From Candidatus Moraniibacteriota bacterium (GTDB lineage Bacteria; Patescibacteriota; Minisyncoccia; Moranbacterales; UBA1568): a stretch of 64,000 nt of DNA. The first letter of the stretch is position 1, and every line of letters starts with the position of its first letter. The position numbers were made by a program, and so were the translations under genes. The stretch is from NCBI GenBank assembly GCA_052035095.1, contig JBPOHW010000001.1, positions 108,857 through 172,856 of the forward strand, given 5' to 3'. Shown piece after piece: positions 5,550-61,677 of this stretch. Below the pieces are notes generated by a model, which saw nothing but the letters and a program-made list of their open reading frames with translations, was not told the DNA's origin and made no database searches.

Positions 5550-5671
5550 AGGACTTCTTCACTTTGATGCAGTTCGAGGAAAAACCGAGTACCGAAATGA
5601 GGTGTATATCATAATACTCCGAATGAGGAACGGAGGTTTTGACGAAGAAATGCGCAAAGTGAGGAAGTCCT
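5550..5671. repeat. Intercistronic hairpin-closed element, family A/C copy A1 (17-bp closing stem aggacttcttcactttg / caaagtgaggaagtcct)
   Basis: About 85 percent identical to 61557..61677. It shares the 5' box tgcagttcgag and the 3' box acgaagaaatgYgc with the copies at 52200..52314 and 60133..60254. It starts 3 nt past the stop of the ORF at 5674 and ends 27 nt before the ugd start. Confidence 0.7.
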
Positions 5672-5673
5672 AT

Positions 5674-6003
5674 TCAAATTCCCATTTTCCGCCTTGCCAG
5701 GCGATACTGATCATCACTCATCATACCGCTCTTTCGCGCCTGCTCGAGTTGCGCGAGAATCTCATCCTTGTGCTTCGCGATATTCTTGGGCGTCATCGCC
5801 TTTTTCAAAACCTTTTCGCGCTCGGCGGGCGACATTTTCATGAGCTGTTTCATCGCAAACTTCTGGAACATCCCCATATCTTTTGGGTCGGGCGCCCCCG
5901 GCATATCGGCGAGTTTCTCCTCAAAGCTTCGATCGTCTTTCTTCTCGACAACCGTCGGCTTCTTCTTGTCATCTTTCGGTTTTTTGGCAAATGGATTCCA
6001 CAT
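5674..6003 (-). CDS. Hypothetical small lysine-rich protein
   Basis: 109-aa ORF in operon orientation between secF and ugd. No recognisable domain. Confidence 0.4.
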   Translation of the reverse strand: MWNPFAKKPKDDKKKPTVVEKKDDRSFEEKLADMPGAPDPKDMGMFQKFAMKQLMKMSPAEREKVLKKAMTPKNIAKHKDEILAQLEQARKSGMMSDDQYRLARRKMGI

Positions 6004-6028
6004 AGAAATTGAATAGATTTTATCAATT

Positions 6029-6160
6029 CGTCATTCCCGTCCCGCCGAGGCGGGAGGAAATCAGTCACCACGAACTGAAAATTTCATCTTTACAAACACA
6101 CTTTGTACTCGCTATTTTTAAGCTAGAGGAGTCTGGATTCCCGCCTTCGCGGGAATGACG
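6029..6160. repeat. Intercistronic hairpin-closed element, singleton, with two internal GC hairpins (cccgcc-gag-gcggg and attcccgc-cttc-gcgggaat)
   Basis: Perfect 11-bp long-range inverted repeat cgtcattcccg (6029) / cgggaatgacg (6150) enclosing about 110 nt. It ends 7 nt from the secF stop codon and 26 nt before the next start. Confidence 0.5.
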
Positions 6161-6167
6161 GTGGGGA

Positions 6168-7286
6168 TTACCTCCTCTTCCCCTTCTTCTTTTTCTTCTT
6201 GTGTACTTTTTTGGTTGAAGAAGAGAGTCGTGGAGGTTCGGAAATGACCGGCGCGGAGCCGAGGGTAGATTCGCCGATACCGAGAGAACGCATATTTTCC
6301 TCCGAAACCGGTTCACTCCTTTTTTCTTGTCTTTCTCGCTTTTCTTTTTTTCCCTTTCCGAGAGAAGTTTCCATTTTCCGAAGTGCGCGGTTTTTCTGAA
6401 AGATATTGCCGGTCACAAGGAGCGCGGTCGCGATATAGATGGATGAATAGGTTCCCGCCGAAACGCCAATCAAAAGCGCGACCGCGAATGATCGGATGGA
6501 CTCGCCGCCAAAAATACTGATCGCGATAAGGACAATAATCACGGTAAACGACGTATTGAACGATCGCGCAATCGTTTGATTGAGCGAGCGGTTCACGACG
6601 CCTTCGAAGTCCTCCTTGCCGCCGGAACGGATGAGATTTTCGCGGATTCGGTCATAGACGACGATGGTATCATTAACCGAATAACCGAGAATGGTGAGGA
6701 GCGCGGCGATAAACGGCGCGCCGACCTCGATACCGTAAAACTTCCCGAGAAACGAAAAGACGCCAAGCGTAATCACGATATCATGCGCGAGAGCGACGGT
6801 CGCCTGAACCCCATAGTGCCACGACGATACCGGGCGCGACACGCCGCGAAACGCCCACGCGATATAGAGAATGATGCCGATCACCGCGAGGATGAGCGCG
6901 ATGATGGCGTTTTTCTTGATACTCTCCGACACCGACGCCCCGATAAATTCGGAACGGATGAGCTCAATGTTCTCATCGGTCTTTTTGAGTTCAGCGAAAA
7001 CTGCCTCATTCACCGTTTCATCGGACGACGCGTAGCGAATAAGCGTGTTCCGATCTCCCGACGTCTGAACCACGAGACTCTCGACGCGCGGAACCTTGAC
7101 CAGCATTTCTTCTATCGCGGATTTTTCCGGAATCTTTCCCTCGCTCCACGACACCTCGAGGAGTGTCCCGCCGCGAAAATCAATGCCGAGTTTGAGTCCC
7201 CACATCGAAAGCATCGCGATACTCGCGATCGTGATCGCTATCGAAAAAGCGTAGAAATATTTTCGTTGTTGAATCAGTTGTCTCAT
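6168..7286 (-). CDS. secF: Protein translocase subunit SecF, with a lysine-rich C-terminal tail
   Basis: SecF TM architecture. The start MRQLIQQRKY overlaps the secD stop by 4 nt (ATGA); the longer upstream ORF extension is rejected. About 70 C-terminal residues are K/E-rich, ending KKKKKKGKRR. Confidence 0.85.
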   Translation of the reverse strand: MRQLIQQRKYFYAFSIAITIASIAMLSMWGLKLGIDFRGGTLLEVSWSEGKIPEKSAIEEMLVKVPRVESLVVQTSGDRNTLIRYASSDETVNEAVFAELKKTDENIELIRSEFIGASVSESIKKNAIIALILAVIGIILYIAWAFRGVSRPVSSWHYGVQATVALAHDIVITLGVFSFLGKFYGIEVGAPFIAALLTILGYSVNDTIVVYDRIRENLIRSGGKEDFEGVVNRSLNQTIARSFNTSFTVIIVLIAISIFGGESIRSFAVALLIGVSAGTYSSIYIATALLVTGNIFQKNRALRKMETSLGKGKKEKRERQEKRSEPVSEENMRSLGIGESTLGSAPVISEPPRLSSSTKKVHKKKKKKGKRR

Positions 7287-8992
7287 AATGAAGGAGTGGA
7301 AATATCCGGACGTTTGCGTTTGGGAACAAGCAGGAAAAGACGCTTTTCCGCCCACGCCCCGAGCATGGAAGAAAGCATCGTCCTCGTCAGTACAATGGCC
7401 GTGAACATTGAGAAGAGGACGCCCAAAAGGAGCACAAACGCGAAGCCCTTCACGAATCCGGTGCCGAGCCACATCAAAATAACGCAAGTGATGAGCGTCG
7501 AATAATTTCCGTCGCGAATCGACGGCCACGCGCGCCGGAATCCTTCATCAACCGCCTTCGCGAGATTCTTGCCGCTCTTCATCTCTTCCCATGTCCGTTC
7601 AAAAATGAGAATGTTGGCATCAACCGCCATACCGATCGAGAGAATAAATCCCGCGATACCGGCCAAAGACAAGGTGATCGGAAACGGCGTGAGACTCGAA
7701 AGCTTGAAAATCGCAAAGAGAAGTCCGGTATAGAGGAGGAGAGAAAAGGACGCGACGAGTCCGAAAAATCGATAGTAGAGAATCATAAACGCTATCACCA
7801 CGCCGACACCAATCATCCCCGCGAACAAACTCTGCTTGAGCGATACCTCGCCGAGAGACGCCGAAACCGTCTGCTGACCGATGAGCGTGATCGGCGCCGG
7901 AAGCGCACCCTCGTTGAGCCGCGCGACGAGCGCTTTCGCCTCCTTGAGGGAATAGTCGCCGGTAATGACCGCCTGGCCGTTCGGGATCTCAGCCTGCACC
8001 GTGGGCGCACTGATAATCTCGCCGTCCAAAAGTATCGCGATTTGTTTGCCGATGTTTTTCTTGGTAAGTTCGCCGAACAATTTCGCGCCCTCGGCATCAA
8101 AGCGGAGCGACACCTGTGGGAGTCCCATTCCCTGACCTCCACCGTAGTCCACAAACGCGTCTTTCAAATTCTTGCCGGAGAGTCCGGTTGCCTTGAAACG
8201 CGCGGCCTCGGGAAGCATCTCGAGCGATTGTTTAGGGAAAAGGATGTGCGACGTGCGCACTTCTTTTGCATCTCCTTCACCTCGCTCATCCGTCTTTTTG
8301 ACGACGTGCCATCCGAACGGCGATTCGACGAGATCGGGCCAGACGGTATCTTTTTTGAACTCGTCTTTGAAAATAATTTCATCGAATTCCTTGACGAATT
8401 TCCCCTTCGTCGCGAAATCCAAATCGCCGCCCTTCTCAGTGCTTCCGGGATCTTTACTCTCTTTCTTGGCAAGCTCGGCAAAATCTTCGTTCTTCTTGGC
8501 GCGCTCCAAAACTTCGACCGCTTTCGCTTTCGACGCCTCATTTATCGTGTCGAGTTGTTTCTGTACCGCCTCGGTATTGTCTTCTTGAAACTCAAGATAG
8601 GGCGTTTCTTTGAGTATTTTCTTCGCCTCGTCCACATCTTTGACGCCCGGCAATTCTACAATAATTCTATCTTCGTTCCCGGAACGCGAGAGCTGAACCA
8701 AGGGCTCGCCGACGCCAAAGGCATTCACGCGCCGCTCAATCACCGCGAGCGCCGACTGAAGCGCGGCGCTCCGCTTCTCCTCCGGAATTTGCGACGTATC
8801 AACCTTGTACTCAAGGTGAATCCCGCCCTGCAAATCAAGCCCGAGATTGACACGCAAGCTCGAAACAGCGCTCCCGAGCCACGGCACACTCGAAACCGCC
8901 CGCGGATACGCCATCACGCCCGCGACTACCGCCAAAAGAATAACTCCGAGCAATCGGAGCTCCCGCCATCGTTTCATATTCATATGCCGCAA
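7283..8992 (-). CDS. secD: Protein translocase subunit SecD, with a parvulin-like (PpiC-type PPIase) segment inserted in the periplasmic P1 domain
   Basis: SecD TM bundle plus P1 head. The inserted segment DFAELAKKESKDPGSTEKGGDLDFATKGKFVKEFDEIIF ... SPFGWHVVKK matches the PpiC rotamase core motifs. Confidence 0.85.
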   Translation of the reverse strand: MRHMNMKRWRELRLLGVILLAVVAGVMAYPRAVSSVPWLGSAVSSLRVNLGLDLQGGIHLEYKVDTSQIPEEKRSAALQSALAVIERRVNAFGVGEPLVQLSRSGNEDRIIVELPGVKDVDEAKKILKETPYLEFQEDNTEAVQKQLDTINEASKAKAVEVLERAKKNEDFAELAKKESKDPGSTEKGGDLDFATKGKFVKEFDEIIFKDEFKKDTVWPDLVESPFGWHVVKKTDERGEGDAKEVRTSHILFPKQSLEMLPEAARFKATGLSGKNLKDAFVDYGGGQGMGLPQVSLRFDAEGAKLFGELTKKNIGKQIAILLDGEIISAPTVQAEIPNGQAVITGDYSLKEAKALVARLNEGALPAPITLIGQQTVSASLGEVSLKQSLFAGMIGVGVVIAFMILYYRFFGLVASFSLLLYTGLLFAIFKLSSLTPFPITLSLAGIAGFILSIGMAVDANILIFERTWEEMKSGKNLAKAVDEGFRRAWPSIRDGNYSTLITCVILMWLGTGFVKGFAFVLLLGVLFSMFTAIVLTRTMLSSMLGAWAEKRLFLLVPKRKRPDISTPSL

Positions 8993-9097
8993 GTATAAAG
9001 ACTTTTTTCCGACCCCGCAACTCTTGACGCTCTACGGAGAATATGAAAAGGACGGGCTGCATTACGCAATCCGCCCTACAAAAAACACACTACTCAC

Positions 9098-9624: not shown

Positions 9625-9627
9625 TCT

Positions 9628-14203: not shown

Positions 14204-17200
14204 TTACATTCCGGCGCCCTGCACCATCCAGTAGAAATTGCTACAAGTAGTATCTCTACACCCACAGCGCCAAGAGCCGCCTTGGACACTACACGTCATC
14301 CCAACAAAGTACGCCGGTGCGCTCGCGCTTGCCGTTGAAATATTGGGGTTGGTGATCGTAGCGGAGACACTCCCCTGGCACCAGTCGCCGTTCTGGGCTC
14401 CCGTGCAGGTTCCCGTATATTGTGTCCAGGCACTTCCGGTGTAGTAGTAGCCCTTGGTATAGACGATCCGTGTCGTGTCACCCGTTTGTCCGAGAGTCGC
14501 TTGGATGGTATGCGGGTCGGATGATAAGCAGGTGGCATTTATGAGGTTCGTGCTCGTTTGGAACGCATCAAACGGCGCGCCGTAACTGTCGTAGGCGGAT
14601 TGGGAGAAGTTCGCGGTTGTCACGGTATTGCAGGGGGTGAAGGTGCCTCCGCTTACATATTCATCCGCGCCAATATCGATGCCGCCTCCTTGAGGACGGG
14701 TATGGCCATCGAAGTCATCAGTGAGCCCGGAAATACTCGTACCGGCATTGTTCGCCGAGGTGGTACCGCTTGCCAAATGAAGATCGGGAAGTGAGGCGTT
14801 TACAAACCAACTTGATTGAGCATTCGTAATATTATTCGAGAGTGTTGCCGCTGCCCCATCTCTCGCCTGTATCGCTTTGTTGGTAAGGTTGTTTCGAATC
14901 ACGAGACCGGAACTTAGAGGAAAGCGGTACTCGATGGCGTTCGGGTAGGTGTTTTGCATGAAGATCGTGTTGTTGTAGATTTGCGTATTCGGACTCTCAT
15001 CCGCCTCGATCGCGACATCGGCGAAAGAACCGTTGCCGCTTGCGTGATAGATCATATTGTTGCGGATAATGCCACGGAGGTGCCCGCGTCCCTGCACGAG
15101 ACCGAACCCGATACCGCGATCGCAATTGATGATGAGGTTCTTTTCGACGAGCGTGTCTTCGGAATTGCTCCAGAAATGAATGGCATGTTCTGCGACCGAT
15201 CCGCTGGGGCTGATGATATTCTTGAATGTATTACCGCGCACGATCCAGTTCTTGGCATTATGCGCGTCGATACCGCCCGTGTAGTATTGTCCCGCCTGTC
15301 CCGAAGTGAATTCAAAGAGAGAGTTTTCGACGAGACCATTGTCAGATCCGACCGTACTCGTATCGATATAGGTTACTTTGAGCATTTGTTCCCACGCGTT
15401 TCGAAATACCATATTCTTTGCCGTGAAATTGTCGCGATTATTCTCGCCGACCACTTGGATGAGATGCCAACCGACCCGTTGAAGCGTCATACTTTCCGCC
15501 GTGAAGTTGTTGGCATCTACCCGGAAAATCATCTTGACGCTCGCGCTTGATGTCATGGCGTCCCCCTGGAGGACGACGGTGTCTCGATTTCCCGATTGAC
15601 TCTTTATGGTCATATTGGGAGCGGAAATGGGGAGCATATCCGAAAGCGTATAGGTGCCATCAGCAATGAGAATAGTTGTCGAACACGAGGGATTGCTGTT
15701 TGCCGTATTCACGGCATTTGCGAGTTGGGAAACACTGTTTACGGTGACAGTGTTGCAGACGGTTCCGCCGCCACCCGATTGTGTGGTCGCACCCACGACA
15801 TTGCTCCAGCCGGAAAGATTGCCGGCGGCATCGGTCGCGCGGACATGGTAGTTATAGAAGGTATTTGGAGTGAGGCCGGAGTCGACGAAGGGAGAAGCAG
15901 TTGGCGTGCCGACTTGGGTGAAGTTGGAACAGCCCGTGCCTTGGCACCGTTCCACGATGTAGCCCGTAACGGCAACGTTGTCGGTGGCGGCGGTCCAGGT
16001 GACGGAGATGCTACTGGAAGAAGGAGCGGAAGCGGCAAGATTCGTGGGAGAAGTAGGGGGTGTCGTATCGCCGCCTCCTCCACCACTGTTCCCCTTCACT
16101 TCCACGGCGGCCAAAGCCCAGGTCATGCCGGTCGGTGCCGTTATTCCAATCGTTTTGTTGCCAGCGCTCCCGGCATTCGCATAGTAGCCGGCTTCGACAC
16201 CGTAGGTACTGCCGTCGGCATAGGCGCTCGTTTCAGTGAAGGTTCCGGCTTGCGAAGTATTGTAGGTTCTCGCTCCCGTTCTTGCGCTCCAGTCGCCGTT
16301 TACCATCACGATGCTTGAGTTCTCACCAACGCCGTTCAAGGTTAGGGTCGGGTTTCCGGTTGCGCTGTTCGCTTGCGCGGTCACACCAATGCCACTCGCG
16401 TTCCTGAAGTGGAGAACATCGCCGCCGAAGTTGCCGCCGTCATTGGTGAAGGAGACATTCACATTGGTTTGATTGCTCGCAACGTTCATCGTCCAGAGAC
16501 GGAGGAAGGTGAAGTTTGAGGCAGAGATCGTTTGGCGGAGGGTCCAGGTGCCAGTGAGGGTGCCAATCGGAGGAGTGGCTATCGTGGTGCTGGAACTTTC
16601 ATTCACGGCATAGGCGACGAGAGTGTCGCCAGACTGGACAGAGAAGTTAGTGGTCGTCTTTGGGGAGGTACTCGTATTCCACGCGGTTTCGTATTCAGAG
16701 ATAAAAGTGGGAGACGGAGGCGCGACTGGCGTTGTTGCGGAAGAAATATTTGAGTAACCAGAGTTGTTTCCGGCAGCGTCGGTGGCGCGGACTTGGTAGC
16801 GGTAGAGAGTGGAGGCAGAGAGTCCCGTGTCGGAGTAACTGGTGGAGGTTTGGGTGCCGATTTGGGTGAAGTTCGTACAGGAAGCGCCGGAGCAGCGTTC
16901 GACTTTGTATTGAGTGACTCCGACATTATCGGTAGAAGCGGTCCAGGTGAGGTTAATCGTGCTAGAAGAAGAGGCTGTAGCGGAGAGGTTGGCGGGAGTT
17001 GAGGGAGGAGCGGTGTCGGGAGCTTGAGTCGTTGCTCCAACCACATTGCTCCAGCCGGAGAGGTTGCCGGCAGCATCAGTGGCTCGGACGTGGTAGTTGT
17101 AGAAAGTGTTTGCCGTGAGACCAGTGTCCATAAATGGAGAGGCGGTCGGGGTGCCGACTTGGGTGAAATTGGAACAGCCCGTGCCTTGGCAGCGTTCGAC

Positions 17201-18460
17201 TATGTAACCTGTCACTCCAATGTTATCCGTCGATGCCGTCCAAGAAACGGAGATGGAAGATTGGTTTGGGGAAGTCGCGGCGAGGGTGGTCGGGGAAGTG
17301 GGAGGGGAGGTGTCGGGGGTGGAAGCGCCGGAAACTTGATAGACGTGAATCTCCGGATTGTCCCCATAATTAAGGGCAATATATATTCGTCTTGTCCCAG
17401 GATCATATGCAAGACCAGAAAATGTCATCTTTGCACAACTGTCATTTGGTCCCGGAAGTGTCCACCACGTGTAGGGTCTGACCTGATGGGGCTGTTTCGT
17501 TCCATTCTTTACCGCAAGCAGTTCATTTGCATCGAAAGCGGTCACTTGTCTTCGATAGGGTGCTGCCCCTTCACCATTAATCCCACCACATCCACCGTCA
17601 TCTTGTTTGTACGTAGGTGGTCCATAACCATGACGCCCGATGTACAGCACCGAGCGATAGCCAGAAGGAAAAACTAATCCCGCTGTGTAGTAGTCGGATC
17701 GCGAATAATAATTATTGGCAACATTCGCGTTATCGAGCGGGTTGGCCAAGGTATAGTACATCAATGGGATACTGGGAATGGGAGTTGTCACATTTACATC
17801 GTCCGGGTTAAAGACATAAAAGGTTGGACCGTTTGCGGAAACACTGTTAATCGACATGGGACCACTGCAGGTGAACGCCGGCCCACCCAACAACAATTGC
17901 CATTCCGGCGGAATTATTCCCATGCAACCGTTCCCGTACGCAGCGCTATTTAGGTTAGCCATACCGCGAAAAGTACTAAAACCACCAATATTCAGATTCC
18001 CAACGGCATGAGTCGGTCCACCCCCATTCGTATCATACGGAATTCTTTTTTGAACGATGAGACGACCATTGTACACAAATGCCCCTGAGAGCTCGGTGGT
18101 ACCGCTCCCAACAGACCCCGGAATACTAACCGGATCCTGAATCACCGTAGTTGAGCCACCAAGTGTCGCTGGTATAGCAATACGACCAAGGCTTTGGTTG
18201 TAGACATGGCCGCCCATGTAGAGACTTTGTCCGTCTGCACTCACAGCGAGTCCCATACCACCGTAAGCAAAAGAATTGGCAGAGCTTCCGGAGCCGGGAT
18301 TTGGAACGGTAAACTTCCCAAGATAGGTAAGATCACCTTGCTGAAGAAGCGACTGCGTGGTTGCATCGGCAAAAACATACTGACCCGAGAACATAGCAAA
18401 CAGAATTGCAAAAACAAAAATTAACACCCCAACCGGACATCTTAGCTGTTTCATACGCAA
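14204..18460 (-). CDS. Giant secreted/surface protein: signal peptide, N-terminal domain, three fibronectin-III domains and a right-handed parallel beta-helix (pectate-lyase-like) domain
   Basis: 1418 aa with the signal peptide MRMKQLRCPVGVLIFVFAILFA. Three FN3 repeats (about 80 percent identical at the DNA level). Beta-helix repeat signatures (NMTIKSQ.., IRNNMIYH.., NNTIFMQ..). Confidence 0.8.
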   Translation of the reverse strand: MRMKQLRCPVGVLIFVFAILFAMFSGQYVFADATTQSLLQQGDLTYLGKFTVPNPGSGSSANSFAYGGMGLAVSADGQSLYMGGHVYNQSLGRIAIPATLGGSTTVIQDPVSIPGSVGSGTTELSGAFVYNGRLIVQKRIPYDTNGGGPTHAVGNLNIGGFSTFRGMANLNSAAYGNGCMGIIPPEWQLLLGGPAFTCSGPMSINSVSANGPTFYVFNPDDVNVTTPIPSIPLMYYTLANPLDNANVANNYYSRSDYYTAGLVFPSGYRSVLYIGRHGYGPPTYKQDDGGCGGINGEGAAPYRRQVTAFDANELLAVKNGTKQPHQVRPYTWWTLPGPNDSCAKMTFSGLAYDPGTRRIYIALNYGDNPEIHVYQVSGASTPDTSPPTSPTTLAATSPNQSSISVSWTASTDNIGVTGYIVERCQGTGCSNFTQVGTPTASPFMDTGLTANTFYNYHVRATDAAGNLSGWSNVVGATTQAPDTAPPSTPANLSATASSSSTINLTWTASTDNVGVTQYKVERCSGASCTNFTQIGTQTSTSYSDTGLSASTLYRYQVRATDAAGNNSGYSNISSATTPVAPPSPTFISEYETAWNTSTSPKTTTNFSVQSGDTLVAYAVNESSSTTIATPPIGTLTGTWTLRQTISASNFTFLRLWTMNVASNQTNVNVSFTNDGGNFGGDVLHFRNASGIGVTAQANSATGNPTLTLNGVGENSSIVMVNGDWSARTGARTYNTSQAGTFTETSAYADGSTYGVEAGYYANAGSAGNKTIGITAPTGMTWALAAVEVKGNSGGGGGDTTPPTSPTNLAASAPSSSSISVTWTAATDNVAVTGYIVERCQGTGCSNFTQVGTPTASPFVDSGLTPNTFYNYHVRATDAAGNLSGWSNVVGATTQSGGGGTVCNTVTVNSVSQLANAVNTANSNPSCSTTILIADGTYTLSDMLPISAPNMTIKSQSGNRDTVVLQGDAMTSSASVKMIFRVDANNFTAESMTLQRVGWHLIQVVGENNRDNFTAKNMVFRNAWEQMLKVTYIDTSTVGSDNGLVENSLFEFTSGQAGQYYTGGIDAHNAKNWIVRGNTFKNIISPSGSVAEHAIHFWSNSEDTLVEKNLIINCDRGIGFGLVQGRGHLRGIIRNNMIYHASGNGSFADVAIEADESPNTQIYNNTIFMQNTYPNAIEYRFPLSSGLVIRNNLTNKAIQARDGAAATLSNNITNAQSSWFVNASLPDLHLASGTTSANNAGTSISGLTDDFDGHTRPQGGGIDIGADEYVSGGTFTPCNTVTTANFSQSAYDSYGAPFDAFQTSTNLINATCLSSDPHTIQATLGQTGDTTRIVYTKGYYYTGSAWTQYTGTCTGAQNGDWCQGSVSATITNPNISTASASAPAYFVGMTCSVQGGSWRCGCRDTTCSNFYWMVQGAGM

Positions 18461-24357: not shown

Positions 24358-24385
24358 CGGACAAGCGTAAAAACAAGGTGGTGTT

Positions 24386-24427
24386 GGTAGTGAGTAGTGA
24401 GTAGTTGGTAGTGAGTAGTGAGTAGTT
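24386..24427. repeat. Two tandem 21-nt direct repeats (ggtagtgagtagtgagtagtt) in a divergent promoter region, followed by a -10-like TATACT
   Basis: Exact tandem duplication seen in sequence. TATACT at 24429..24434 lies 22 nt before the ATPase start. A related 17-mer, tagttggtagtgagtag, recurs at 37023..37039. Confidence 0.6.
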
Positions 24428-24455
24428 GTATACTAGAGACACCTAACTCTCCATC

Positions 24456-30716: not shown

Positions 30717-30888
30717 GCGAAAGATTCGCTTATTTGGCTAAGAGAAAGAAATTAACGGAGGGGCGGGCGAACTTACAGAAACCACAAACGAAAGCTTCTT
30801 TGAGAGGTTATTTCCATCCATAACACACAAACTCGCCTACCAAGCCCCGGAGCATTTCTTGAACGTGACAAATAAGCGAATCTTTCGC
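30717..30888. repeat. Intercistronic hairpin-closed element, family B copy B1 (20-bp perfect closing stem gcgaaagattcgcttatttg / caaataagcgaatctttcgc)
   Basis: About 135-nt core nearly identical to 32228..32358. It fills the whole spacer between the M23 peptidase stop (30896) and the GT start (30700). Confidence 0.7.
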
Positions 30889-32193: not shown

Positions 32194-32374
32194 CGCTTTC
32201 GCATTTGGCAAACCTGCTTGCCGGCAAGGCAGGGAGAAAGAAATTAACGCAGCGGCGAGCAAACCTACGAAAACCACAAACGAAAGTTTCTTTGGGAGGT
32301 TATTTCCATCCGTAACACAAAAACTCGCCTACCAAGCCCCGGAGCATTTCTTGAACGTGCCGAATGCGAAAGCG
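32194..32374. repeat. Intercistronic hairpin-closed element, family B copy B2 (16-bp closing stem cgctttcgcatttggc / gccgaatgcgaaagcg), with an extra internal hairpin
   Basis: Same core as B1 but a different closing-stem sequence that still pairs. It carries an inserted palindrome cctgcttgccggcaaggcagg, which resembles cctgccttgccggtaggcagg at 2269..2292. It lies between the gltX stop and the peptidase start. Confidence 0.7.
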
Positions 32375-36728: not shown

Positions 36729-37460
36729 TCACAAACTTTCCCTCTTCAATTGATCCACACATACCGCTACCGGAAACACCACTACCGCTCGCCAGATTCG
36801 TCGCCAGCGTTTTGGTTGGAGGAAAAGTCGCCAGAGCCACTCAACGCCGAGTACGCGAAACACTTTCGGAGCACGCGGGAGCTTCCCCGTGAGAAAATCA
36901 AACGCGCCGCCGACGCCTATCGCAAGTCTCACCGAGTTCGCCCGTCCCCGCAAGGACTCGAGGAAGTATTCTTGGTCGGGGGCGCCGAAATTGGAGAAGA
37001 CGATAGGGCAGTTAGTAGTTAGTAGTTGGTAGTGAGTAGTTTTTTCAGACTGCTGTCCATATATTTTCAGTTTTGGATATTTTTTGAGGAGGGCGGCTTG
37101 AATTTCTTTGAGAGAGGAGAGTCCATCTCTCTTGATAGCGAGAAAAACTGAGAGATTTCGCGTTTCCGCTTCTTTTAAGATTTCGTGCAGAAGGTCGGCG
37201 CCCGGAAAACGCTCAATATGTTTTCCGTACAGCCACCCGGCAAGCGTGATGCCGAACCCGTCCGCCACGCGAAGATCAGCCCTCAAAAGATTCTCTTTGA
37301 ATTTCTCATCCTCCCTCGCCCGAAGCAAAAACTCCGGTCCCACGGTCGCGATACGAAAGAAAGAATTCCCTGTAAAAATTGATCGGACGCAAGAAAGAAC
37401 CTCTTTTTTTGAAAGACTCGATAAGGGAATCCCAAAAAAGAATCTTTGCTCTTTGTTCAT
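36729..37460 (-). CDS. WecB/TagA/CpsF-family glycosyltransferase (N-acetylmannosaminyltransferase-like)
   Basis: N-terminal and C-terminal blocks match the TagA family (LRADLRVADGFGI; GVGGAFDFLTGKLPRAPK; GVEWLWRL). The start is taken at MNKEQRFFFGIP. The loop before the second half is encoded by the tagtgagtag repeat. Confidence 0.7.
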   Translation of the reverse strand: MNKEQRFFFGIPLSSLSKKEVLSCVRSIFTGNSFFRIATVGPEFLLRAREDEKFKENLLRADLRVADGFGITLAGWLYGKHIERFPGADLLHEILKEAETRNLSVFLAIKRDGLSSLKEIQAALLKKYPKLKIYGQQSEKTTHYQLLTTNCPIVFSNFGAPDQEYFLESLRGRANSVRLAIGVGGAFDFLTGKLPRAPKVFRVLGVEWLWRLFLQPKRWRRIWRAVVVFPVAVCVDQLKRESL

Positions 37461-40617: not shown

Positions 40618-40708
40618 CGCCGAGACCACAAAAAATAATTTTTCGAAACTTCGCTCCGAGCCCAACGAGGAGTGTGTGAGAAAAAATATTTTTTGTGGTT
40701 GAGGCGAC
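40618..40708. repeat. Intercistronic hairpin-closed element, family E copy E1
   Basis: Shares about 60 nt of core (aaacttcgctccga...gaggagtgtgtgagaaaaaatattttt) and the terminal boxes cgccgagacc / gaggcgac with 41741..41833. Its closing stem is ccacaaaaaata / tattttttgtgg. It lies between def and fmt. Confidence 0.6.
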
Positions 40709-40729
40709 TAAAATTCCACTCCAAAATCA

Positions 40730-41740: not shown

Positions 41741-41833
41741 CGCCGAGACCGTGAATCCCGCCTTGGCGGGACGAAAGTTTGCTCCGATAGAGAGGAGTAT
41801 ATGAGAAAAAATATTTTTCGCGGTCGAGGCAAC
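41741..41833. repeat. Intercistronic hairpin-closed element, family E copy E2
   Basis: Same boxes and core as E1, with a different closing stem (gaccgtgaa... / ...ttcgcggtc) and an extra internal hairpin cccgcc-ttg-gcggg. It lies between fmt and the rhodanese gene. Confidence 0.6.
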
Positions 41834-41883
41834 TCTCAAAGAAGCGAGAGTGAGAATAATTCAACAAAGCGCTCGCTCGATTT

Positions 41884-51760: not shown

Positions 51761-52150
51761 CTAGGTCTTCTCCGCCGCCTTGCGTCGCCCGCTTCCCATG
51801 GTTTTTCGAACATTGCCGCGAATGGTACGCGTATTGGTCTTGGTCCGCTGTCCGCGAACGGGAAGGTTTTTCTGGTGACGCGTCCCGCGATAGCATCCGA
51901 TTTCTTTGAGCCGCTTCACGTTCATTTTGACCGCGTGCCGAAGCTCGCCCTCGACCCGATATTTCTTCTCAATGGCATCCCGCAAACGATTAGCTTCTTC
52001 GATCGGAAGATTTTTCGATCGAATGTCGGGACTGATCGAGAGCTCGCCAAGAATCTTCCGGCTCGTCGTAATGCCGATGCCGTAAATATAGGTGAGCGCG
52101 ACTTCAATGCGCTTCTCGTCAGGAATGTTGATACCGGCAATACGAACCAT
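51761..52150 (-). CDS. rpsM: 30S ribosomal protein S13
   Basis: Start MVRIAGINIPDEKRIEVALTYIYGIG. Confidence 0.9.
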   Translation of the reverse strand: MVRIAGINIPDEKRIEVALTYIYGIGITTSRKILGELSISPDIRSKNLPIEEANRLRDAIEKKYRVEGELRHAVKMNVKRLKEIGCYRGTRHQKNLPVRGQRTKTNTRTIRGNVRKTMGSGRRKAAEKT

Positions 52151-52199
52151 AAAATTCTCTTTAACAATAACCGCTCATTACTTTCTATTTCGCCCGAGG

Positions 52200-52314
52200 A
52201 CATTCATCTTTGAGTACAGTTCGAGACGCAGGTGAGGAGCGGGGCAAGCTTTATGTAAACATACAGTGTCAAGCACCGGAACCGGCAACGAAGAAATGTG
52301 CCAAAGATGAATGT
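52200..52314. repeat. Intercistronic hairpin-closed element, family A/C copy C2 (closing stem acattcatctttg / caaagatgaatgt), filling the rpmJ-rpsM spacer
   Basis: Core gagtacagttcgaga...gaggagcggggcaagctttatgtaaacatacag...acgaagaaatgtgcc aligns with 60133..60254, and through the 5' and 3' boxes with the A copies. It abuts the rpmJ stop codon. Confidence 0.7.
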
Positions 52315-52315
52315 T

Positions 52316-52429
52316 CTACCCTTGTCGTTGCTTGTGTTTCTTGACGGAGCACACCACAAAGAGCGTCCCTCTCCGTTTTACCACCTTGCAGTGAGCGCAC
52401 ATTTTTTTGACCGATGCTCGAACTTTCAT
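52316..52429 (-). CDS. rpmJ: 50S ribosomal protein L36
   Basis: My own translation of the minus strand gives [37 protein letters not shown], the C-x2-C...C-x4-H zinc ribbon. It is too short to appear in the ORF track. Confidence 0.8.
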
Positions 52430-57249: not shown

Positions 57250-57278
57250 AGAAACCCGTTGCGTTATATCGAATGCAA

Positions 57279-57536: not shown

Positions 57537-57541
57537 AAAAG

Positions 57542-57913: not shown

Positions 57914-57937
57914 GAAAAAAGAAAGTAATACGCGAGG

Positions 57938-60118
57938 CTATTCCTTTACCGTTACCGTCACTTGCGACGCGCGACTCGGAATACGGGTCGTCATAAATTT
58001 CGGCCAGAAAACCACCTCAATCTTCTCGATATTCGGATACTCCGGGAAAATTCCCTGCACCTCGCCAACACTCTTTCCGAGAAGGCTTTGTTTTATTTTT
58101 TCCACATCCACGGTCGCGCGCTTCGAGAAAGAAACCTTCGCCTTTATCAACATTGACTTTGAAACAAAATCCGGACGAGGTACGGTGTATTCGAGACTCA
58201 CGTCTTCCGGAGAAAGTTTCTCCTCAAAAAGAGTCGCACCAACCGCTCGCATATCCGCCTCCGAAAAAACAAAGGCTCGCGCCGACACGCGAATGCGATA
58301 ATCAAAACTTGGCGCGACCGCGCCCGTGCCCGGAAAAGCGCCCGAAGAAAGTTTTTCAAAAAGAATGGCGTCATCCAAAATTTTCTCACCCGGTTTCAAA
58401 TCCTTCTCGAATTCCACACGAATCAATTCGGAAAGTTTCTGCTCGGAAGTTTCCTTGGCGCGTATTACGTCATCCGCCGAAACGGAAGCGATCCCGCCAT
58501 CCCCCTCGCCGCCACCCAAAAACGGTTGCGTGGATCGAGCGGTAATCTTTTCATATTTGGCATTTCCCTTGAAGCCGGGAATCGTGAATGACGCGGGTTC
58601 GATATTGTATTCCTTTCCCGACACATCGGCCACCACCTCCGCCTCAACCGTCCCGGGTGTCAATGTTCCATCTGTTTCCTTCGCGCCGGGAACCGTGACT
58701 CCCTTCACAATGCGAAAAATTTTTCCGTCCGACGTTTCAAAGCGAGTGGTTGCGATAAGGGACTGTGGATCTTTCCCGAACGCGTTGGAGATCGTTATCG
58801 TTCCGCGAGCGCGTTTATCGGACGCGGACGACTTCCCCGTCCCCGGAAATGACTGACTGATTTCTTTTTCCATTTCGAGAAAACGAAGTGGAATAATCTT
58901 TCCTTCGGTATCGACATCTCGTTGATCCGTCTTTGCCAAAACTTCCGCGTCAATCGACTCCGAGCTATCTTTTACGAGAATCGCCACCTCGGCTTGAGGA
59001 ACAAAGATAAACGCCGAGACGCCCGCCGCCGCGAGTATTGATACCGCGACAAACCCAAAAACAAAATACGGAAAAATTCGCCGTCCGGATTTCTTCTCGA
59101 AAGGAATCTCGGGGGATTGTTTTTCCGAGGACGCCGAGGGGGTAGCGCGATGCTGATAGAGTCGAGCAATCGGGGTTTCGAGCGATGGCTGTGGAGGAGG
59201 AGGGGGTGCACTGGCGACTTTTGACGGAAGAGCCGAAACCGAAGGTGAACTCGGAGCCATGACCGAAGCGGGAGCGGGAACGGAATCAAAATTTTTCGGT
59301 GTCTGTAAAGAGCGAGAGGGGGACGGAGATAACGGCGTCGGAGGAGCTTGAAACAAAAACGAAACTCGAGGGACGCCTCCAGAGGAGGATGCGGGAGACG
59401 CCGATGTCGCCAAAGGCTTCGGCGTTGAAATCGGCCGACTCATCTCCCGCGAAGGAACCGACGTATCAACCCGCGGCGCCGGCGCCTTCAATGAGGATTC
59501 GTCCCGAACCGAATTGAGCGTTGTCAGTTGTTTCGGCGTCCGATCACTGACGGGAATCGTTCGCGGTATGCTCGACGAAATGGAGGGGGTTGCGGGGAGC
59601 GCTTTCGAAGGGATTTTCGGGTAGACCGGCGTTTTCGCGTCCTCGTTTCCGGGCGACGCTTCAACAACCGATTCTCTTTTTGTGAAGAAACTCGACGACC
59701 CGATCGATTCGGAATGAAGCCGTTCAGCCGATCCCACCCCTGGAAGCGATTCGCAATCCTCCGCTGCCGACTGCTCAACGCGAGAGAGTCGCGCGGGAAG
59801 AGCGGCATCTTCCGCTCGAGAAGCGACGCCATCAACCGTTTCGAGCGAACTCTTCGTTTCGATACCGGCCTTCTCGGCAAGAAGTCGCCCCGTCTCGTCC
59901 TGCGTCACCAAACACAAGTGTTTCCCGAGTTTTTTGGACTCGCGATCGAGAAGGCGAAGATTGACAAGACTTTGAAGAAATGCCGCTCGTTTCGGAACGG
60001 CAAAAAACACCTCCGTATCGGTCACTTTTCGAAGTCGTCCGATAACGGAAATGATTTCCTCATCCGGATCAATATACACAAGGTGCGACATAAGCTTTTT
60101 TGATTTTTTTGTTTTCAA
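57938..60118 (-). CDS. Hypothetical bitopic membrane protein: N-terminal cytoplasmic domain, Pro/Ser-rich linker, one TM and a large extracytoplasmic domain. It sits where ftsZ would be expected after ftsA
   Basis: 726 aa. Low-complexity P/S/A stretch (residues about 150-330), TM helix IFPYFVFGFVAVSILAAAGVSAFIFV, and a C-terminal beta-rich domain. The start may be TTG at 60118 or ATG at 60091. Confidence 0.6.
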   Translation of the reverse strand: MKTKKSKKLMSHLVYIDPDEEIISVIGRLRKVTDTEVFFAVPKRAAFLQSLVNLRLLDRESKKLGKHLCLVTQDETGRLLAEKAGIETKSSLETVDGVASRAEDAALPARLSRVEQSAAEDCESLPGVGSAERLHSESIGSSSFFTKRESVVEASPGNEDAKTPVYPKIPSKALPATPSISSSIPRTIPVSDRTPKQLTTLNSVRDESSLKAPAPRVDTSVPSREMSRPISTPKPLATSASPASSSGGVPRVSFLFQAPPTPLSPSPSRSLQTPKNFDSVPAPASVMAPSSPSVSALPSKVASAPPPPPQPSLETPIARLYQHRATPSASSEKQSPEIPFEKKSGRRIFPYFVFGFVAVSILAAAGVSAFIFVPQAEVAILVKDSSESIDAEVLAKTDQRDVDTEGKIIPLRFLEMEKEISQSFPGTGKSSASDKRARGTITISNAFGKDPQSLIATTRFETSDGKIFRIVKGVTVPGAKETDGTLTPGTVEAEVVADVSGKEYNIEPASFTIPGFKGNAKYEKITARSTQPFLGGGEGDGGIASVSADDVIRAKETSEQKLSELIRVEFEKDLKPGEKILDDAILFEKLSSGAFPGTGAVAPSFDYRIRVSARAFVFSEADMRAVGATLFEEKLSPEDVSLEYTVPRPDFVSKSMLIKAKVSFSKRATVDVEKIKQSLLGKSVGEVQGIFPEYPNIEKIEVVFWPKFMTTRIPSRASQVTVTVKE

Positions 60119-60132
60119 GTGTTCCCAGGTTG

Positions 60133-60254
60133 AGAACCTTCAAAATTCGGTGCAGTCCAAGGCGCAATCGAGGAGCGGAGTAAGCCGTATGTAGTCATAC
60201 GGTGTCGAGCACCGGAAATTGCAACGAAGGAATGTGCCGGATTTTGAAGGTTCT
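60133..60254. repeat. Intercistronic hairpin-closed element, family A/C copy C1 (18-bp closing stem agaaccttcaaaattcgg / ccggattttgaaggttct); the right arm overlaps the ftsA stop codon
   Basis: Core aligns with 52200..52314 (cgaggagcggagtaagccgtatgtagtcatacggtgtcgagcaccggaaattgcaacgaaggaatgtgcc). The arms have a different sequence but stay complementary. Confidence 0.7.
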
Positions 60255-61512
60255 ATCTCTGGACGGTGTCCATGGCACGACGCAGCATTCCAGCAAGAGA
60301 CTTCTCTTCGTCCGCGAGGTGAAGAACAAGATTCGCAAGCCCCATCGGCGTAATGTCTTGAGGATTGGAAAGAACACCGGTCGTATCGCTTATCCGGATA
60401 ATATCGTGCGGTTGAAGGAAACTTACCTGCGGCGGCTTGGCAAACGGCAAGCTCGCACTCCACTCTTCGGAAAGAAGCGCCTCCCGAATTCCGGGAAGTC
60501 CCGACCCGCCACCGCACAGAAATATCTTGGTCGGAAGAAGGTCGGTATCCGAAAACTCGGCAAGTGAAAGCTCGACGCCACCCTGCCATACATGACAATC
60601 CTCTCGGAAGAATTCATGAAGCGCCTCGGTTGCCTCTTTGTCGAGTTTCCCAAGTGAGTAGTTGATTTTCAATTTCTCAGCTTCTTCAAAACTCACGCCG
60701 GACTCTTGTGCGAGACGCTTCGTGAAGGCGCGTCCACCCAAGGCAAACATCTTCGTCCCCTCCAATCCGCCATTCCGAACAACCGCGATATCGGTCGTGC
60801 CACCCCCGATATCGATGAATATCGCGCTAAAATCGAGCATATCCTCGACCTCAACCGACCGCGCGACCGCGTAGGGTTCCGCCGCGATATTAATGAGATC
60901 GAGATGAAGATCCGACGCGATACTCTCGATCGCTCCCAAATGAATCATCGGCGCATAGGCATTGAAAATGCTCATCGAGACATCGCGCCCCTGAAAATTG
61001 AGCGGATTGGTTACGCGATACCCGTCAATCCGCACATCAACGACCGCCGCGTTGATGAGCTTCACATCGATTTCGGACTGATTCGTTTCCCAGGCAAGTT
61101 GTTTGTGAATACGTTCATACGCTTTTTCTTGCACCTTCTCGACAATCATACGAAGCTCCGACAAACTGATCTTCACCTCCGGATTCACGCGTTCATAATG
61201 CACGGTTGTCGTTGTTCCTTTCACAAGTTCTCCCGCGATACCGACAATGCTTTTCCTCACCTTCTTCACTTTTGCCTGCTCCTCCGCAAGGAGAATCGCT
61301 TCGCGGCACGACTCAATCACGCCGGCAATATCCGAGACGGCGCCACTTTGCATATTGCCCATTTTTTGCCGAACCCAGCCAACACCGACGACGACGCCGC
61401 GTCCGCCGGTTTCAATTCGAAAGATAAGCGCCTTCACGATTTCCGTCCCGATATCGAGCGCCAAATAATACTCGCCCGACCCTTGTCCGAAAACTTTTGA
61501 AAAAAGACCCAT
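60253..61512 (-). CDS. ftsA: Cell division protein FtsA (actin-like ATPase)
   Basis: Phosphate-1 ALDIGTEIVKA, phosphate-2 IDIGGGTTDIAV and adenosine GGGSGLPGI motifs. Confidence 0.8.
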   Translation of the reverse strand: MGLFSKVFGQGSGEYYLALDIGTEIVKALIFRIETGGRGVVVGVGWVRQKMGNMQSGAVSDIAGVIESCREAILLAEEQAKVKKVRKSIVGIAGELVKGTTTTVHYERVNPEVKISLSELRMIVEKVQEKAYERIHKQLAWETNQSEIDVKLINAAVVDVRIDGYRVTNPLNFQGRDVSMSIFNAYAPMIHLGAIESIASDLHLDLINIAAEPYAVARSVEVEDMLDFSAIFIDIGGGTTDIAVVRNGGLEGTKMFALGGRAFTKRLAQESGVSFEEAEKLKINYSLGKLDKEATEALHEFFREDCHVWQGGVELSLAEFSDTDLLPTKIFLCGGGSGLPGIREALLSEEWSASLPFAKPPQVSFLQPHDIIRISDTTGVLSNPQDITPMGLANLVLHLADEEKSLAGMLRRAMDTVQR

Positions 61513-61556
61513 ACCGACAAGAAATAATCAATCACCAATTCTCAATTTCCAAAAAT

Positions 61557-61677
61557 AGGACTTCCTCACTTTGATGCAGTTCGAGAAAAAACCGAGCAAC
61601 GGAAGGAGGTGTATGCGCAATACTTCGAGTGAGTAGCGCAGGTTTTGACGAAGAAATGCGCAAAGTGAGGAAGTCCT
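61557..61677. repeat. Intercistronic hairpin-closed element, family A/C copy A2 (perfect 17-bp closing stem aggacttcctcactttg / caaagtgaggaagtcct)
   Basis: About 85 percent identical to 5550..5671. The one stem difference relative to A1 gives a G-U pair instead of G-C. It ends 45 nt before the ftsA start. Confidence 0.7.

What the first reader, a model, noticed from the sequence alone, without database searches (positions are those of the whole stretch)
5550..61677. Multi-copy family of intercistronic RNA-like elements (A1, A2, C1, C2) with a conserved core and co-varying closing stems
Four copies lie at 5550-5671, 61557-61677, 60133-60254 and 52200-52314.
- Shared motifs: a 5' box RtRcagtYcRag, a central short hairpin (tatg..cata), and a 3' box acgaagRaatgYgcc.
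- Each is enclosed by a 13-18 bp terminal stem. The stem sequence is completely different between the A and C copies. Within the A pair it differs by a compensatory G-C to G-U change.
- Because the core is conserved while the flanking inverted repeats diverge yet keep pairing, this is the signature of a selected RNA secondary structure. It is the opposite of a MITE, where the terminal inverted repeats are the conserved part.
- All four sit inside minus-strand operons. Each abuts, or lies 3 nt from, the stop codon of the upstream gene (small ORF, PfkB kinase, ftsA, rpmJ). Each ends 15-50 nt before the next start (ugd, ftsA, the 726-aa gene, rpsM).
- Possible roles: an intercistronic mRNA processing or stability module, an attenuator, a translational-coupling breaker, or a cis-antisense sRNA family.
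- I do not recognise it as any described element. It is not REP, ERIC or a Correia element.
Basis: seen in the sequence. Interest (0 to 1): 0.8.

Follow-up and report, generated by a model that had tools for sequence, protein, structure and literature searches.

The report
Widespread miniature hairpin transposon family
The four repeats are real copies of a previously undescribed ~125-bp hairpin-forming mobile repeat (a MITE-like element) that is scattered through the tiny genomes of Patescibacteria and a few other phyla, not a dedicated operon-processing RNA, although one of its two strands keeps its fold in a way that is still unexplained.

Summary
All four copies exist (covariance-model hits of 97-114 bits, nothing else in the window). 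The same element occurs in at least 118 species-level genomes, mostly Patescibacteria but also Neisseria dentiae, Neisseriaceae, Myxococcota and Chloroflexota. On 116 copies the hairpin is strongly supported: 93% of cells pair versus 70% shuffled and 34-44% slid, and 33 of 36 pairs show double changes. No Rfam family, paper, plasmid or phage matches it.

It behaves as mobile DNA. Near-identical A-type copies lie at unrelated loci. Relatives with 92-93% identical FtsA have empty sites. One strain variant has lost 34 nt. One relative has a full copy next to a truncated one. A subset has about 5-nt flanking direct repeats. Neisseriaceae copies end in the exact terminal inverted repeats of the IS5-family ISNme1.

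Pairing is favoured on the window + strand (G-U:A-C = 283:61), which is antisense to the flanking genes in all four window copies and in 79% of cases overall. The phylum-spanning core combined with lineage-specific termini, and the strand-specific fold, remain unexplained. Best reading: a new MITE family. Interest is moderate.

The parts
5549..5672 (+). Copy A1. The whole hairpin element, with the fold strand on +. It lies between a 109-aa ORF (stop codon at 5674-5676) and ugd (start at 5523).
   Evidence: Model hit of 114.5 bits; sequence; folds.
5568..5578 (+). A1 5' box, TGCAGTTCGAG on the fold strand.
   Evidence: Exact pattern match; alignments A1/A2.
5642..5655 (+). A1 3' box, ACGAAGAAATGCGC on the fold strand.
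   Evidence: Exact pattern match.
52197..52317 (+). Copy C2, between rpmJ and rpsM (start at 52150). The rpmJ TAG stop codon at 52316-52318 overlaps the element tip.
   Evidence: Model hit of 97.4 bits; ORFs and Pfam.
52236..52269 (.). Apical 34 nt of C2. This segment is deleted in strain-level variants whose flanks are otherwise identical.
   Evidence: Alignment of loci L165, L167 and L168 with the window.
60132..60255 (+). Copy C1. The ftsA TAG stop codon (60253-60255) forms its tip. The next ORF starts at 60118 (TTG) or about 60092 (ATG).
   Evidence: Model hit of 104.2 bits. The site is empty in L119 and L120. L070 has a related copy at the same junction.
61556..61678 (+). Copy A2, inserted in the ftsA 5' leader, 44 nt before the ATG at 61512.
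   Evidence: Model hit of 111.9 bits; sequence; leaders of relatives lack it.
61551..61555 (.). AAAAA directly flanking A2. It is repeated at 61679-61683, so it is a possible 5-nt target-site duplication. The sequence is low-complexity, so this single case is weak evidence.
   Evidence: Flank analysis.
61679..61683 (.). Second copy of the AAAAA flank of A2.
   Evidence: Flank analysis.
61724..61734 (-). Promoter-like TGTGGTATACT upstream of A2 and ftsA. It is context rather than part of the element, and it shows that A2 sits inside a leader.
   Evidence: Read directly; the box is conserved in L070, L119 and L120.

Best explanation
The four repeats belong to a new family of about 125-bp non-autonomous mobile elements (MITE-like).

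Architecture (shown):
- lineage-specific terminal inverted repeats;
- a hypervariable but always complementary stem;
- a core conserved across phyla, consisting of two purine-rich boxes (TGCAGTTCGAGG and ACGAAGAAATGCG on the fold strand), a variable helix and an apical GTA..TAC hairpin.

Behaviour:
- Copies are gained and lost between close relatives (shown).
- They land in short AT-rich spacers, very often exactly at or after a TAA or TAG stop codon. There the element tip TAG/TAA can itself serve as the stop (shown).
- They are presumably mobilised in trans by a transposase that makes a staggered cut of about 5 bp (inferred from flanking direct repeats in a subset, and from ISNme1-type termini in Neisseriaceae).
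- The hairpin is maintained on one particular strand through G-U/G-T wobbles and G-A-rich internal loops. Some single-stranded form of that strand, either a transcript or ssDNA, therefore matters to the element (inferred; the molecule is unknown).
- The 79% antisense orientation and the orientation-specific stop-codon abutment are best explained by host selection against placing the very stable strand inside operon mRNAs (inferred).

In this window the copies are most likely tolerated passengers, not required processing signals.
For: Family and structure:
- The model found 116 hits in 100 sources.
- 93.1% of cells pair, against 69.6% in shuffles and 34-44% in slid controls, and 33 of 36 pairs have double changes.

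Mobility:
- A-type copies with identical stems lie at unrelated loci in the window and in MAG XM1_ASGE3bin.7.
- None of 39 ftsA loci from relatives carries an element, including L119 and L120 with 92-93% FtsA identity. Their junctions were read directly.
- L070 has a full copy plus a truncated 3' arm 30 nt away.
- Strain variants carry a 34-nt internal deletion.
- Copies in a Myxococcota MAG sit in mosaic repeat clusters at contig ends.
- Direct repeats of at least 5 nt flank 5 of 111 copies, against 0.3 expected; repeats of at least 3 nt flank 16, against 3.5 expected.

Termini:
- N. dentiae copies end in GAGACCTTTGCAAAA / TTTTGCAAAGGTCTC. This equals the ISNme1 (IS5 family) inverted repeats listed in Table 2 of PMC4596501.
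- The same termini flank a different 165-bp MITE in the same locus.

Context and strand:
- No protein family is enriched near the copies; neighbours are only housekeeping genes.
- G-U:A-C is 283:61 overall, 143:60 without the two conserved wobble columns, and G-U exceeds A-C in 19 columns against 7.
- The bias has the same direction in antisense (68:24), sense (16:9) and mixed (59:27) contexts.
- The + strand folds better with both RNA and DNA energy parameters.
- Orientation is 49 antisense to 13 sense.
- Stop-codon abutment is 48 of 72 versus 9 of 46 (Fisher p = 6e-7).
Against: - No transposase was found, and no autonomous element with these ends turned up in about 1.1 Mb of fetched DNA.
- Most copies show no flanking direct repeat.
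- The terminal TA behaves as part of the inverted repeat, never as a direct duplication.
- A DDE-type cut-and-paste MITE does not by itself predict a strand-specific hairpin.
- It also does not predict a core conserved from Patescibacteria to Neisseria under different termini.
- Outer stems of different copies within one genome differ greatly yet stay complementary (L027 and L005). This needs either selection on pairing or arm-to-arm correction.
- The boxes are invariant partly by construction, because the loci were retrieved with a pattern containing them.
- Some phylum labels come from MAG bins and could be binning errors. The N. dentiae isolate, whose copy sits next to DUS sequences, and the Chloroflexota copy with 74% GC are safe.
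Confidence: 0.55

Rival explanations
1. A structured non-coding RNA, or an RNA-like mobile module, is encoded on the fold strand (the window + strand). It would be transcribed independently or antisense to the operons and act in cis-antisense or in trans. The inverted-repeat termini would merely be its vehicles.
For: - Covariation is strand-specific, with conserved U-G and G-U wobbles and G-A-rich internal loops.
- The core is conserved across phyla under different termini.
- The strand asymmetry does not depend on neighbour orientation.
Against: - Neither flank has a position-specific conserved promoter or terminator.
- No protein partner is linked.
- Apical loops are variable and are not GNRA/UNCG-type.
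- The apical 34 nt are dispensable in a natural variant.
- There is no Rfam relative, even at E<=10.
- Close relatives lack the copies altogether.
Confidence: 0.17
2. One reading: a cis-acting intercistronic mRNA element for processing, stability, attenuation or uncoupling, working within the minus-strand operon transcripts.
For: - The sense-strand 5' end abuts or overlaps the upstream stop codon in 48 of 72 cases.
- The sense RNA still folds, with z-scores of -3.6 to -7.6.
- REP-like stabiliser or ribosome-stalling roles are known for comparable repeats (established knowledge of E. coli REP elements).
Against: - Wobble statistics show that pairing is preserved on the other strand. G-U on the fold strand is a C-A mismatch in the mRNA.
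- The same operon junctions lack the element in lineages with 92-93% identical FtsA.
- A2 sits in a 5' leader.
- 21% of copies are in the opposite orientation, and copies also lie between convergent or divergent genes.
Confidence: 0.1
3. A host DNA-level element whose hairpin matters on one replication strand. It could be kept off the lagging-strand template, or serve as a protein-binding or cruciform site. Orientation would then be set by the replichore rather than by transcription.
For: - The fold strand has negative GC skew in 89 of 116 loci. This includes 15 of 34 loci where most genes are on the fold strand.
- The strand asymmetry points the same way in sense and antisense copies.
- Four copies on one 245-kb contig switch orientation together with the genes.
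Against: - GC skew is confounded by coding-strand composition.
- L027 holds copies of both orientations within 4 kb among genes that are all on one strand.
- Gain, loss and truncation patterns indicate mobility rather than a fixed chromosomal function.
Confidence: 0.1
4. An ssDNA-transposed or ssDNA-recombined element: a REP/REPIN with a RAYT, an IS200/IS605-derived palindromic element, or an attC-like site.
For: - The hairpin is strand-specific and has conserved irregularities.
- It sits right after stop codons with the folded strand antisense, as integron attC bottom strands do (established knowledge of integrons).
Against: - Flanking direct repeats in a subset are not made by HUH/Y1 enzymes.
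- There is no GTAG REP signature.
- The GTT..AAC polarity is opposite to the attC R''/R' boxes (read).
- Flanking genes are housekeeping genes, not cassettes.
- No Y1 transposase or integrase was seen near any copy.
Confidence: 0.06

Closest known systems
Correia elements (CREE/nemis) of Neisseria and ERIC/IRU of enterobacteria (palindromic MITEs transcribed within operons)
   Same: - 100-150 bp long, with near-complete self-complementarity.
- Found in intergenic and intra-operon positions, in many copies.
- Present or absent between relatives.
- Effects on the host depend on orientation.
   Different: - No sequence similarity.
- The termini are not the Correia 26-bp repeat.
- A TA duplication was tested and not seen; a subset instead shows about 5-nt repeats.
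- The core is conserved across phyla, whereas Correia and ERIC are genus- or family-restricted.
- Wobble pairing here is strand-specific.
REPINs / REP sequences mobilised by RAYT
   Same: - A long hairpin whose pairing is maintained by compensatory change.
- Extragenic, often just after stop codons.
- No linked gene at each copy.
   Different: - In REPINs the conserved parts are the two terminal REPs and the middle varies. Here the tips are lineage-specific, the middle of the outer stem is hypervariable and the subterminal boxes are invariant.
- There is no GTAG motif.
- Some copies have flanking direct repeats.
- No RAYT was found.
IS5-family MITEs sharing ISNme1/ISPg-type termini (e.g. BrickBuilt and MITEPgRS of Porphyromonas gingivalis; PMC4596501)
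   Same: - Neisseriaceae copies carry the exact ISNme1 terminal repeats GAGACCTTTGCAAAA / TTTTGCAAAGGTCTC.
- Several MITE types share one set of termini within a genome.
   Different: - Patescibacterial copies end in TAGGACTTAC instead.
- The internal core is unrelated to BrickBuilt.
- The observed direct repeats are about 5 nt.
Integron attC sites
   Same: - An imperfect palindrome of 57-141 bp that starts at or overlaps the stop codon of the upstream gene.
- The functional fold is on the strand antisense to that gene.
- Structure is conserved more than sequence in part of the stem.
   Different: - The R-box polarity is reversed.
- The core sequence is strongly conserved.
- Neighbours are housekeeping genes.
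- There is no integrase or cassette array.

Membership tests
MITE (non-autonomous inverted-repeat transposable element) | Small (<~300 bp), non-coding, present in several dispersed copies. | tested here: met
   The window holds four copies of 121-124 bp.
MITE (non-autonomous inverted-repeat transposable element) | Terminal inverted repeats shared by family members. | tested here: met
   The terminal consensus is TAGGACTT..AAGTCCTA, with 45-70% conservation per column. A-type copies have identical 17-bp arms at unrelated loci.
MITE (non-autonomous inverted-repeat transposable element) | Target-site duplication. | tested here: inconclusive
   Direct repeats of at least 5 nt flank 5 of 111 copies against 0.3 expected; repeats of at least 3 nt flank 16 against 3.5 expected. 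Most copies have none. A TA duplication is rejected: there are no direct-only cases against 27 inverted-only cases.
MITE (non-autonomous inverted-repeat transposable element) | Insertion polymorphism: filled versus empty orthologous sites. | tested here: met
   The ftsA junctions are filled in the window and in L070 but empty in L119 and L120 (92-93% FtsA identity) and in all 39 metagenome ftsA loci.
MITE (non-autonomous inverted-repeat transposable element) | A cognate autonomous element or transposase with the same ends. | tested here: inconclusive
   Neisseriaceae copies share 15 of 15 nt on both arms with the ISNme1 terminal repeats. No transposase ORF and no split half-sites were found in 1.1 Mb of loci. 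Whole genomes could not be searched.
Any Rfam 15 RNA family | A covariance-model match at the gathering score, or any match at E<=10. | tested here: not met
   No hit on the elements. The only hit in the window is a borderline Alpha_RBS match at the start of rpsM.
REP/REPIN-RAYT | Conserved terminal REP units with a GTAG-type motif and an associated RAYT gene. | tested here: not met
   There is no GTAG motif, and the conserved parts are subterminal boxes. No recurrent neighbouring gene was found. The presence of a RAYT elsewhere in the genomes could not be tested.
Integron attC | R'' (RYYYAAC) at the 5' end and R' (GTTRRRY) at the 3' end of the top strand, lying within cassette arrays next to intI. 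| tested here: not met
   GTT lies 5' and AAC lies 3' on both strands (read). The neighbours are rpmJ/rpsM, ftsA and ugd.
IS200/IS605-derived palindromic elements | Separate subterminal hairpins at the left and right ends, no inverted-repeat termini and no target duplication. | tested here: not met
   The element is a single end-to-end hairpin with inverted termini, and a subset has flanking direct repeats.
Correia element | A 26-bp Correia inverted repeat with a TA duplication. | tested here: not met
   The termini differ, and TA is not a direct repeat. The comparison with the Correia sequence itself is from memory.

The most novel reading that the evidence does not exclude
The phylum-spanning core may be a functional single-stranded module: a structured RNA, or an ssDNA hairpin with conserved G-A loops and wobbles. 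It would have been captured repeatedly by, or would itself direct, miniature transposons with different termini. Examples would be a transposition-guiding or transposition-regulating RNA, or the recognition hairpin of an undescribed strand-specific transposition pathway that is active in the streamlined genomes of Patescibacteria.
Probability: 0.2. Interest if true: 0.75.

Novelty: new member of a known kind. Interest (0 to 1): 0.42.

Why it matters
- Patescibacteria (CPR) genomes are about 1 Mb, tightly packed and usually described as poor in mobile DNA. A repeat present four times in 64 kb, even between rpmJ and rpsM, shows that a miniature element can colonise them.
- The same core recurs in Neisseria, Myxococcota and Chloroflexota under different termini. 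That makes it a marker of cross-phylum DNA exchange.
- For annotation, it explains odd 120-nt spacers, stop codons supplied by the repeat, and contig breaks.
- For RNA-motif discovery, it is a cautionary example: excellent covariation statistics can come from a mobile palindrome.
- The strand-specific fold, if it reflects a real single-stranded intermediate or transcript, could reveal how such elements move or are tolerated. N. dentiae is cultivable, so this can be tested.

Tried and rejected
- Rfam, at gathering scores and at E<=10: nothing.
- Full-text search for the box sequences and termini: only chance primer matches, except the ISNme1 terminal repeat table. Keyword searches for CPR repeats or RNA motifs found nothing relevant.
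- Plasmid collection: no match. Viral contigs: 3 pattern hits, of which only one is a weak model hit.
- Linked protein: clustering of 814 ORFs around the copies found only housekeeping families such as LepA, T2SS/T4P proteins and aminoacyl-tRNA synthetases.
- Guide-like complementarity between the variable stem and the flanks: none beyond chance (6.36 versus 6.12).
- Outer stems derived from the target: rejected, because the empty sites lack them and A-type stems are identical at different loci.
- Conserved promoter or terminator in the flanks: none.
- TA target duplication: rejected.
- Autonomous version, sought as split half-sites or a long-range pair of termini: not found in the DNA held.
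- Resemblances considered by eye and dropped: a kink-turn (CGAAGAA matches Kt-7, but the register contradicts the U-A to C-G covariation in P3); a tRNA T-loop (GTTCGAG); group II intron domain V (AGCCGUAU..AUACGGU, but no bulge or upper helix); hairpin-ribozyme loop A; the attC R boxes (wrong polarity); and Tn3-type terminal repeats (a partial match over the outer roughly 20 nt only, not tested further).
- Mutational bias as the cause of the G-U excess: rejected. Expected deamination asymmetry would favour the opposite strand (inference).
- Exact-protein look-ups for L36, FtsA and the 109-aa ORF found nothing on record.
Full report

The four stretches were read on the minus strand and aligned. 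They share two boxes. On the minus strand these read GCRCATTYCTTCGT and CTYGRACTGYA. Exact matches to them occur only in the four copies.

Each copy folds end to end into a rod-like hairpin, far better than shuffles (z = -3.6 to -9). A covariance model built later from 98 relatives finds exactly four hits in the 64 kb. All are on the + strand, score 97-114 bits, and nothing else appears at E<=1.

Three details needed correction:
- The stems of A and C copies are not unrelated. They share the tip (T)AGRAC.TTC and the inner TTG/CAA.
- The A1/A2 difference is a one-sided C-G to U-G change that is a pair only on the + strand.
- A2 does not abut the PfkB stop codon. PfkB ends at a TGA at 61764-61766. 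A2 starts 85 nt further on, downstream of a TGTGGTATACT promoter-like box that is conserved upstream of ftsA in relatives. A2 therefore sits in the ftsA leader.

**2. How widespread is it?**

- Most are Patescibacteria: Saccharibacteria, Paceibacterota, Moranii-, Kaiser-, Uhr-, Taylor-, Nomura-, Campbell- and Kerfeldbacteria.
- Others are a Neisseria dentiae isolate and MAG, Neisseriaceae MAGs, a Myxococcota MAG (9 loci), a Chloroflexota MAG (element GC of 74%), and MAGs labelled Bdellovibrionales, Micavibrio and Gammaproteobacteria.
- About seven hits are chance matches without stems.
- The model recovers 116 copies in 100 sources, including 11 that lack the exact pattern, and more in the remaining loci.
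- Viral contigs and plasmids essentially lack the element.
- Rfam has no relative.
- Full-text searches with the box sequences found nothing relevant.

The N. dentiae copies lie next to Neisseria DNA-uptake sequences, so the cross-phylum range is not a binning artefact.

**3. Structure**

On the 116-copy alignment, 93.1% of cells form standard pairs. Shuffled partners give 69.6% and slid partners give 34-44%. Thirty-three of 36 pairs show changes on both sides.

Read on the window + strand, the architecture is:
- an outer stem of about 17 bp, with a conserved tip TAGGACTT, a hypervariable middle and a conserved inner TTG;
- a 2-nt bulge;
- P2, UGCA/UGCG, with a conserved U-G;
- a G-A mismatch;
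- P3, UUC/GAA, which covaries to UCC/GGA;
- a GA/GAA internal loop;
- an invariant G-C pair;
- a second 2x2 loop;
- a variable helix P4;
- a purine-rich internal region;
- an apical hairpin NNGUAY..RUACNN.

**4. Which strand folds?**

All four window copies fold 9-15 kcal/mol better on the + strand with RNA parameters. They fold 4-6 kcal/mol better on that strand with DNA parameters.

Across the family, non-Watson-Crick cells are G-U 283 times and A-C 61 times in that orientation. Without the two conserved wobble columns the counts are 143 and 60. In the outer stem alone they are 96 and 37. G-U exceeds A-C in 19 columns and the reverse holds in 7. The internal loops are G-A-rich on this strand and pyrimidine-rich on the other.

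The expected deamination bias would enrich G-T on the gene-sense strand, so mutation pressure does not explain the result (inference).

The bias points the same way in three classes of copy:
- fold strand antisense to both neighbours: 68:24;
- fold strand sense to both neighbours: 16:9;
- mixed contexts: 59:27.

A reversed bias in the sense class is rejected (p = 8e-5). These cells are not phylogenetically independent, so the p-values are only indicative.

**5. Position and orientation**

The fold strand is antisense to both neighbouring ORFs in 49 cases and sense in 13. ORFs were called with a simple longest-ORF rule, so the counts are noisy.

Gene 3' ends that face an element lie within -15..+10 nt of it in 48 of 72 cases when the gene is antisense to the fold strand. 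When the gene is sense to it, the figure is only 9 of 46 (Fisher p = 6e-7). In at least 11 cases the stop codon is the element's own terminal TAG or TAA.

Neither flank shows position-specific conservation, a promoter or a T-run.

**6. Evidence for mobility**

(a) A-type copies with identical 17-bp arms occur twice in the window and four times in the related MAG XM1_ASGE3bin.7. They lie at loci with no flank homology.

(b) A metagenome scan with the window's FtsA returned 39 loci, and the model finds no element in any of them. L119 and L120, with 92.6% and 91.9% FtsA identity, have plain 75-nt and 55-nt spacers after the ftsA TAG and plain leaders upstream. Only L070, the closest relative at 93.1%, has a copy at the ftsA stop.

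(c) L070 also has a truncated 3' arm 30 nt downstream of its full copy, and its junctions are shifted by 4-5 nt relative to the window. This indicates repeated events at one site.

(d) Contigs encoding the identical S13 protein all carry C2, but three strain variants have lost its apical 34 nt while their flanks remain identical.

(e) In the Myxococcota MAG the copies sit in mosaic repeat clusters at contig ends.

(f) With hairpin ends defined by maximal pairing, direct repeats of at least 5 nt flank 5 of 111 copies against 0.3 expected. They are TAAAT, ATAAC, AAAAA, AGGCC and TCTTAC. Repeats of at least 3 nt flank 16 copies against 3.5 expected. A TA duplication is excluded, because the terminal dinucleotide is never a direct-only repeat.

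(g) The N. dentiae copies end in GAGACCTTTGCAAAA / TTTTGCAAAGGTCTC. These are the terminal inverted repeats given for the IS5-family ISNme1 in Table 2 of PMC4596501. The same termini flank a different 165-bp palindromic MITE 3 kb away. Two other Neisseriaceae MAGs have the variant GAGCCCCCTGCAAAA, one of them with TTTAA on both sides.

The core therefore travels between lineage-specific termini.

**7. What was not found**

- No protein family recurs near the copies.
- No split half-sites or long-range terminal pairs that would mark an autonomous element were found in about 1.1 Mb.
- The variable stem is not complementary to the flanks.

**8. Interpretation**

The simplest account is a new MITE-like family. 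It explains the copy-number pattern, the gain and loss, the truncations, the terminal consensus, the ISNme1 termini and the flanking repeats.

Pairing is kept on the antisense strand, and sister lineages lack the element at the same junctions.

Two things are not explained by a plain cut-and-paste MITE:
- the strand-specific maintenance of the hairpin, which is intrinsic to the element;
- the near-invariant core shared across phyla under different termini.

I infer that some single-stranded form of the fold strand, either a transcript or ssDNA, matters to the element. I also infer that the antisense bias near stop codons reflects host selection against placing the very stable strand (about -53 versus -38 kcal/mol) inside operon mRNAs. 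Both points are inferences.

Replication-strand effects could not be separated from gene direction with 8-kb loci. L027 shows both orientations within 4 kb of co-directional genes, so orientation is not strictly set by the replichore.

**9. Novelty and score**

I found no description of this family in Rfam or in the searchable literature. In kind it is a MITE/REP-like palindromic repeat, so I rate it a new member of a known kind.

There is a roughly 20% chance that the core is a functional single-stranded module of a new sort.

Interest is moderate at 0.42. The element is notable for CPR genome biology and as a caution for covariation-based RNA discovery, but it is not the selected operon RNA that was proposed.

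Noticed in passing
window 30742-30873 and 32234-32365 (minus-strand orientation); L081 about 3300-3460: A second, unrelated 132-nt repeat family (90% identical). Each copy is enclosed by a different inverted repeat of 20 bp, 11 bp or 21 bp, and the copies share only the inner TTTGGCA/TGCCAAA. The core itself is not unusually structured (z about 0). The organisation is the same as in the main family: a variable closing stem around a conserved core.
   Followed up: partly
window 52118-52222 (-): A borderline Rfam Alpha_RBS hit (38.3 bits against a threshold of 38.0). It spans the 3' arm of copy C2 and the start of rpsM. Most of the score comes from the conserved rpsM coding start, so it is probably not a genuine S4-binding leader.
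   Followed up: no
window 61724-61734 (-); L070 about 3985-3995; L119 about 2869-2879; L120 about 2798-2808: An extended -10-like box TGTGGTATA(C/A)T is conserved upstream of ftsA in four related genomes. It implies that ftsA has its own promoter and that copy A2 lies in its 5' leader.
   Followed up: partly
window 24372-24440 and 36993-37054: Short arrays of a 7-nt unit (GTAGTGA / AGTAGTT-like) occur in two intergenic regions 12.6 kb apart (family D2).
   Followed up: no
window 15779-17255: Three 232-nt direct repeats (63-79% identical) lie inside the 1418-aa ORF at 14204-18460. They are presumably internal protein repeats (family D1).
   Followed up: no
window 40667-40709 and 41792-41834: A 43-nt repeat (86% identical) occurs upstream of two plus-strand ORFs (family D8).
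   Followed up: no
L003 2631-2795 and about 7300-7446 (Neisseria dentiae): A different palindromic MITE of about 165 bp has the same ISNme1-type terminal repeats as the N. dentiae copy of the main family. There is one full copy and one copy lacking its left end.
   Followed up: partly
L070 about 5600-5650: A truncated extra 3' arm of the element (GAGCTGCACCAGATTTTGAAGGTTCTC) lies 30 nt downstream of the full copy at the ftsA stop codon.
   Followed up: partly
window 57938-60118 (-): The 726-aa ORF downstream of ftsA has no Pfam match at E<=0.001, but it is conserved in position in L070, L119 and L120.
   Followed up: no
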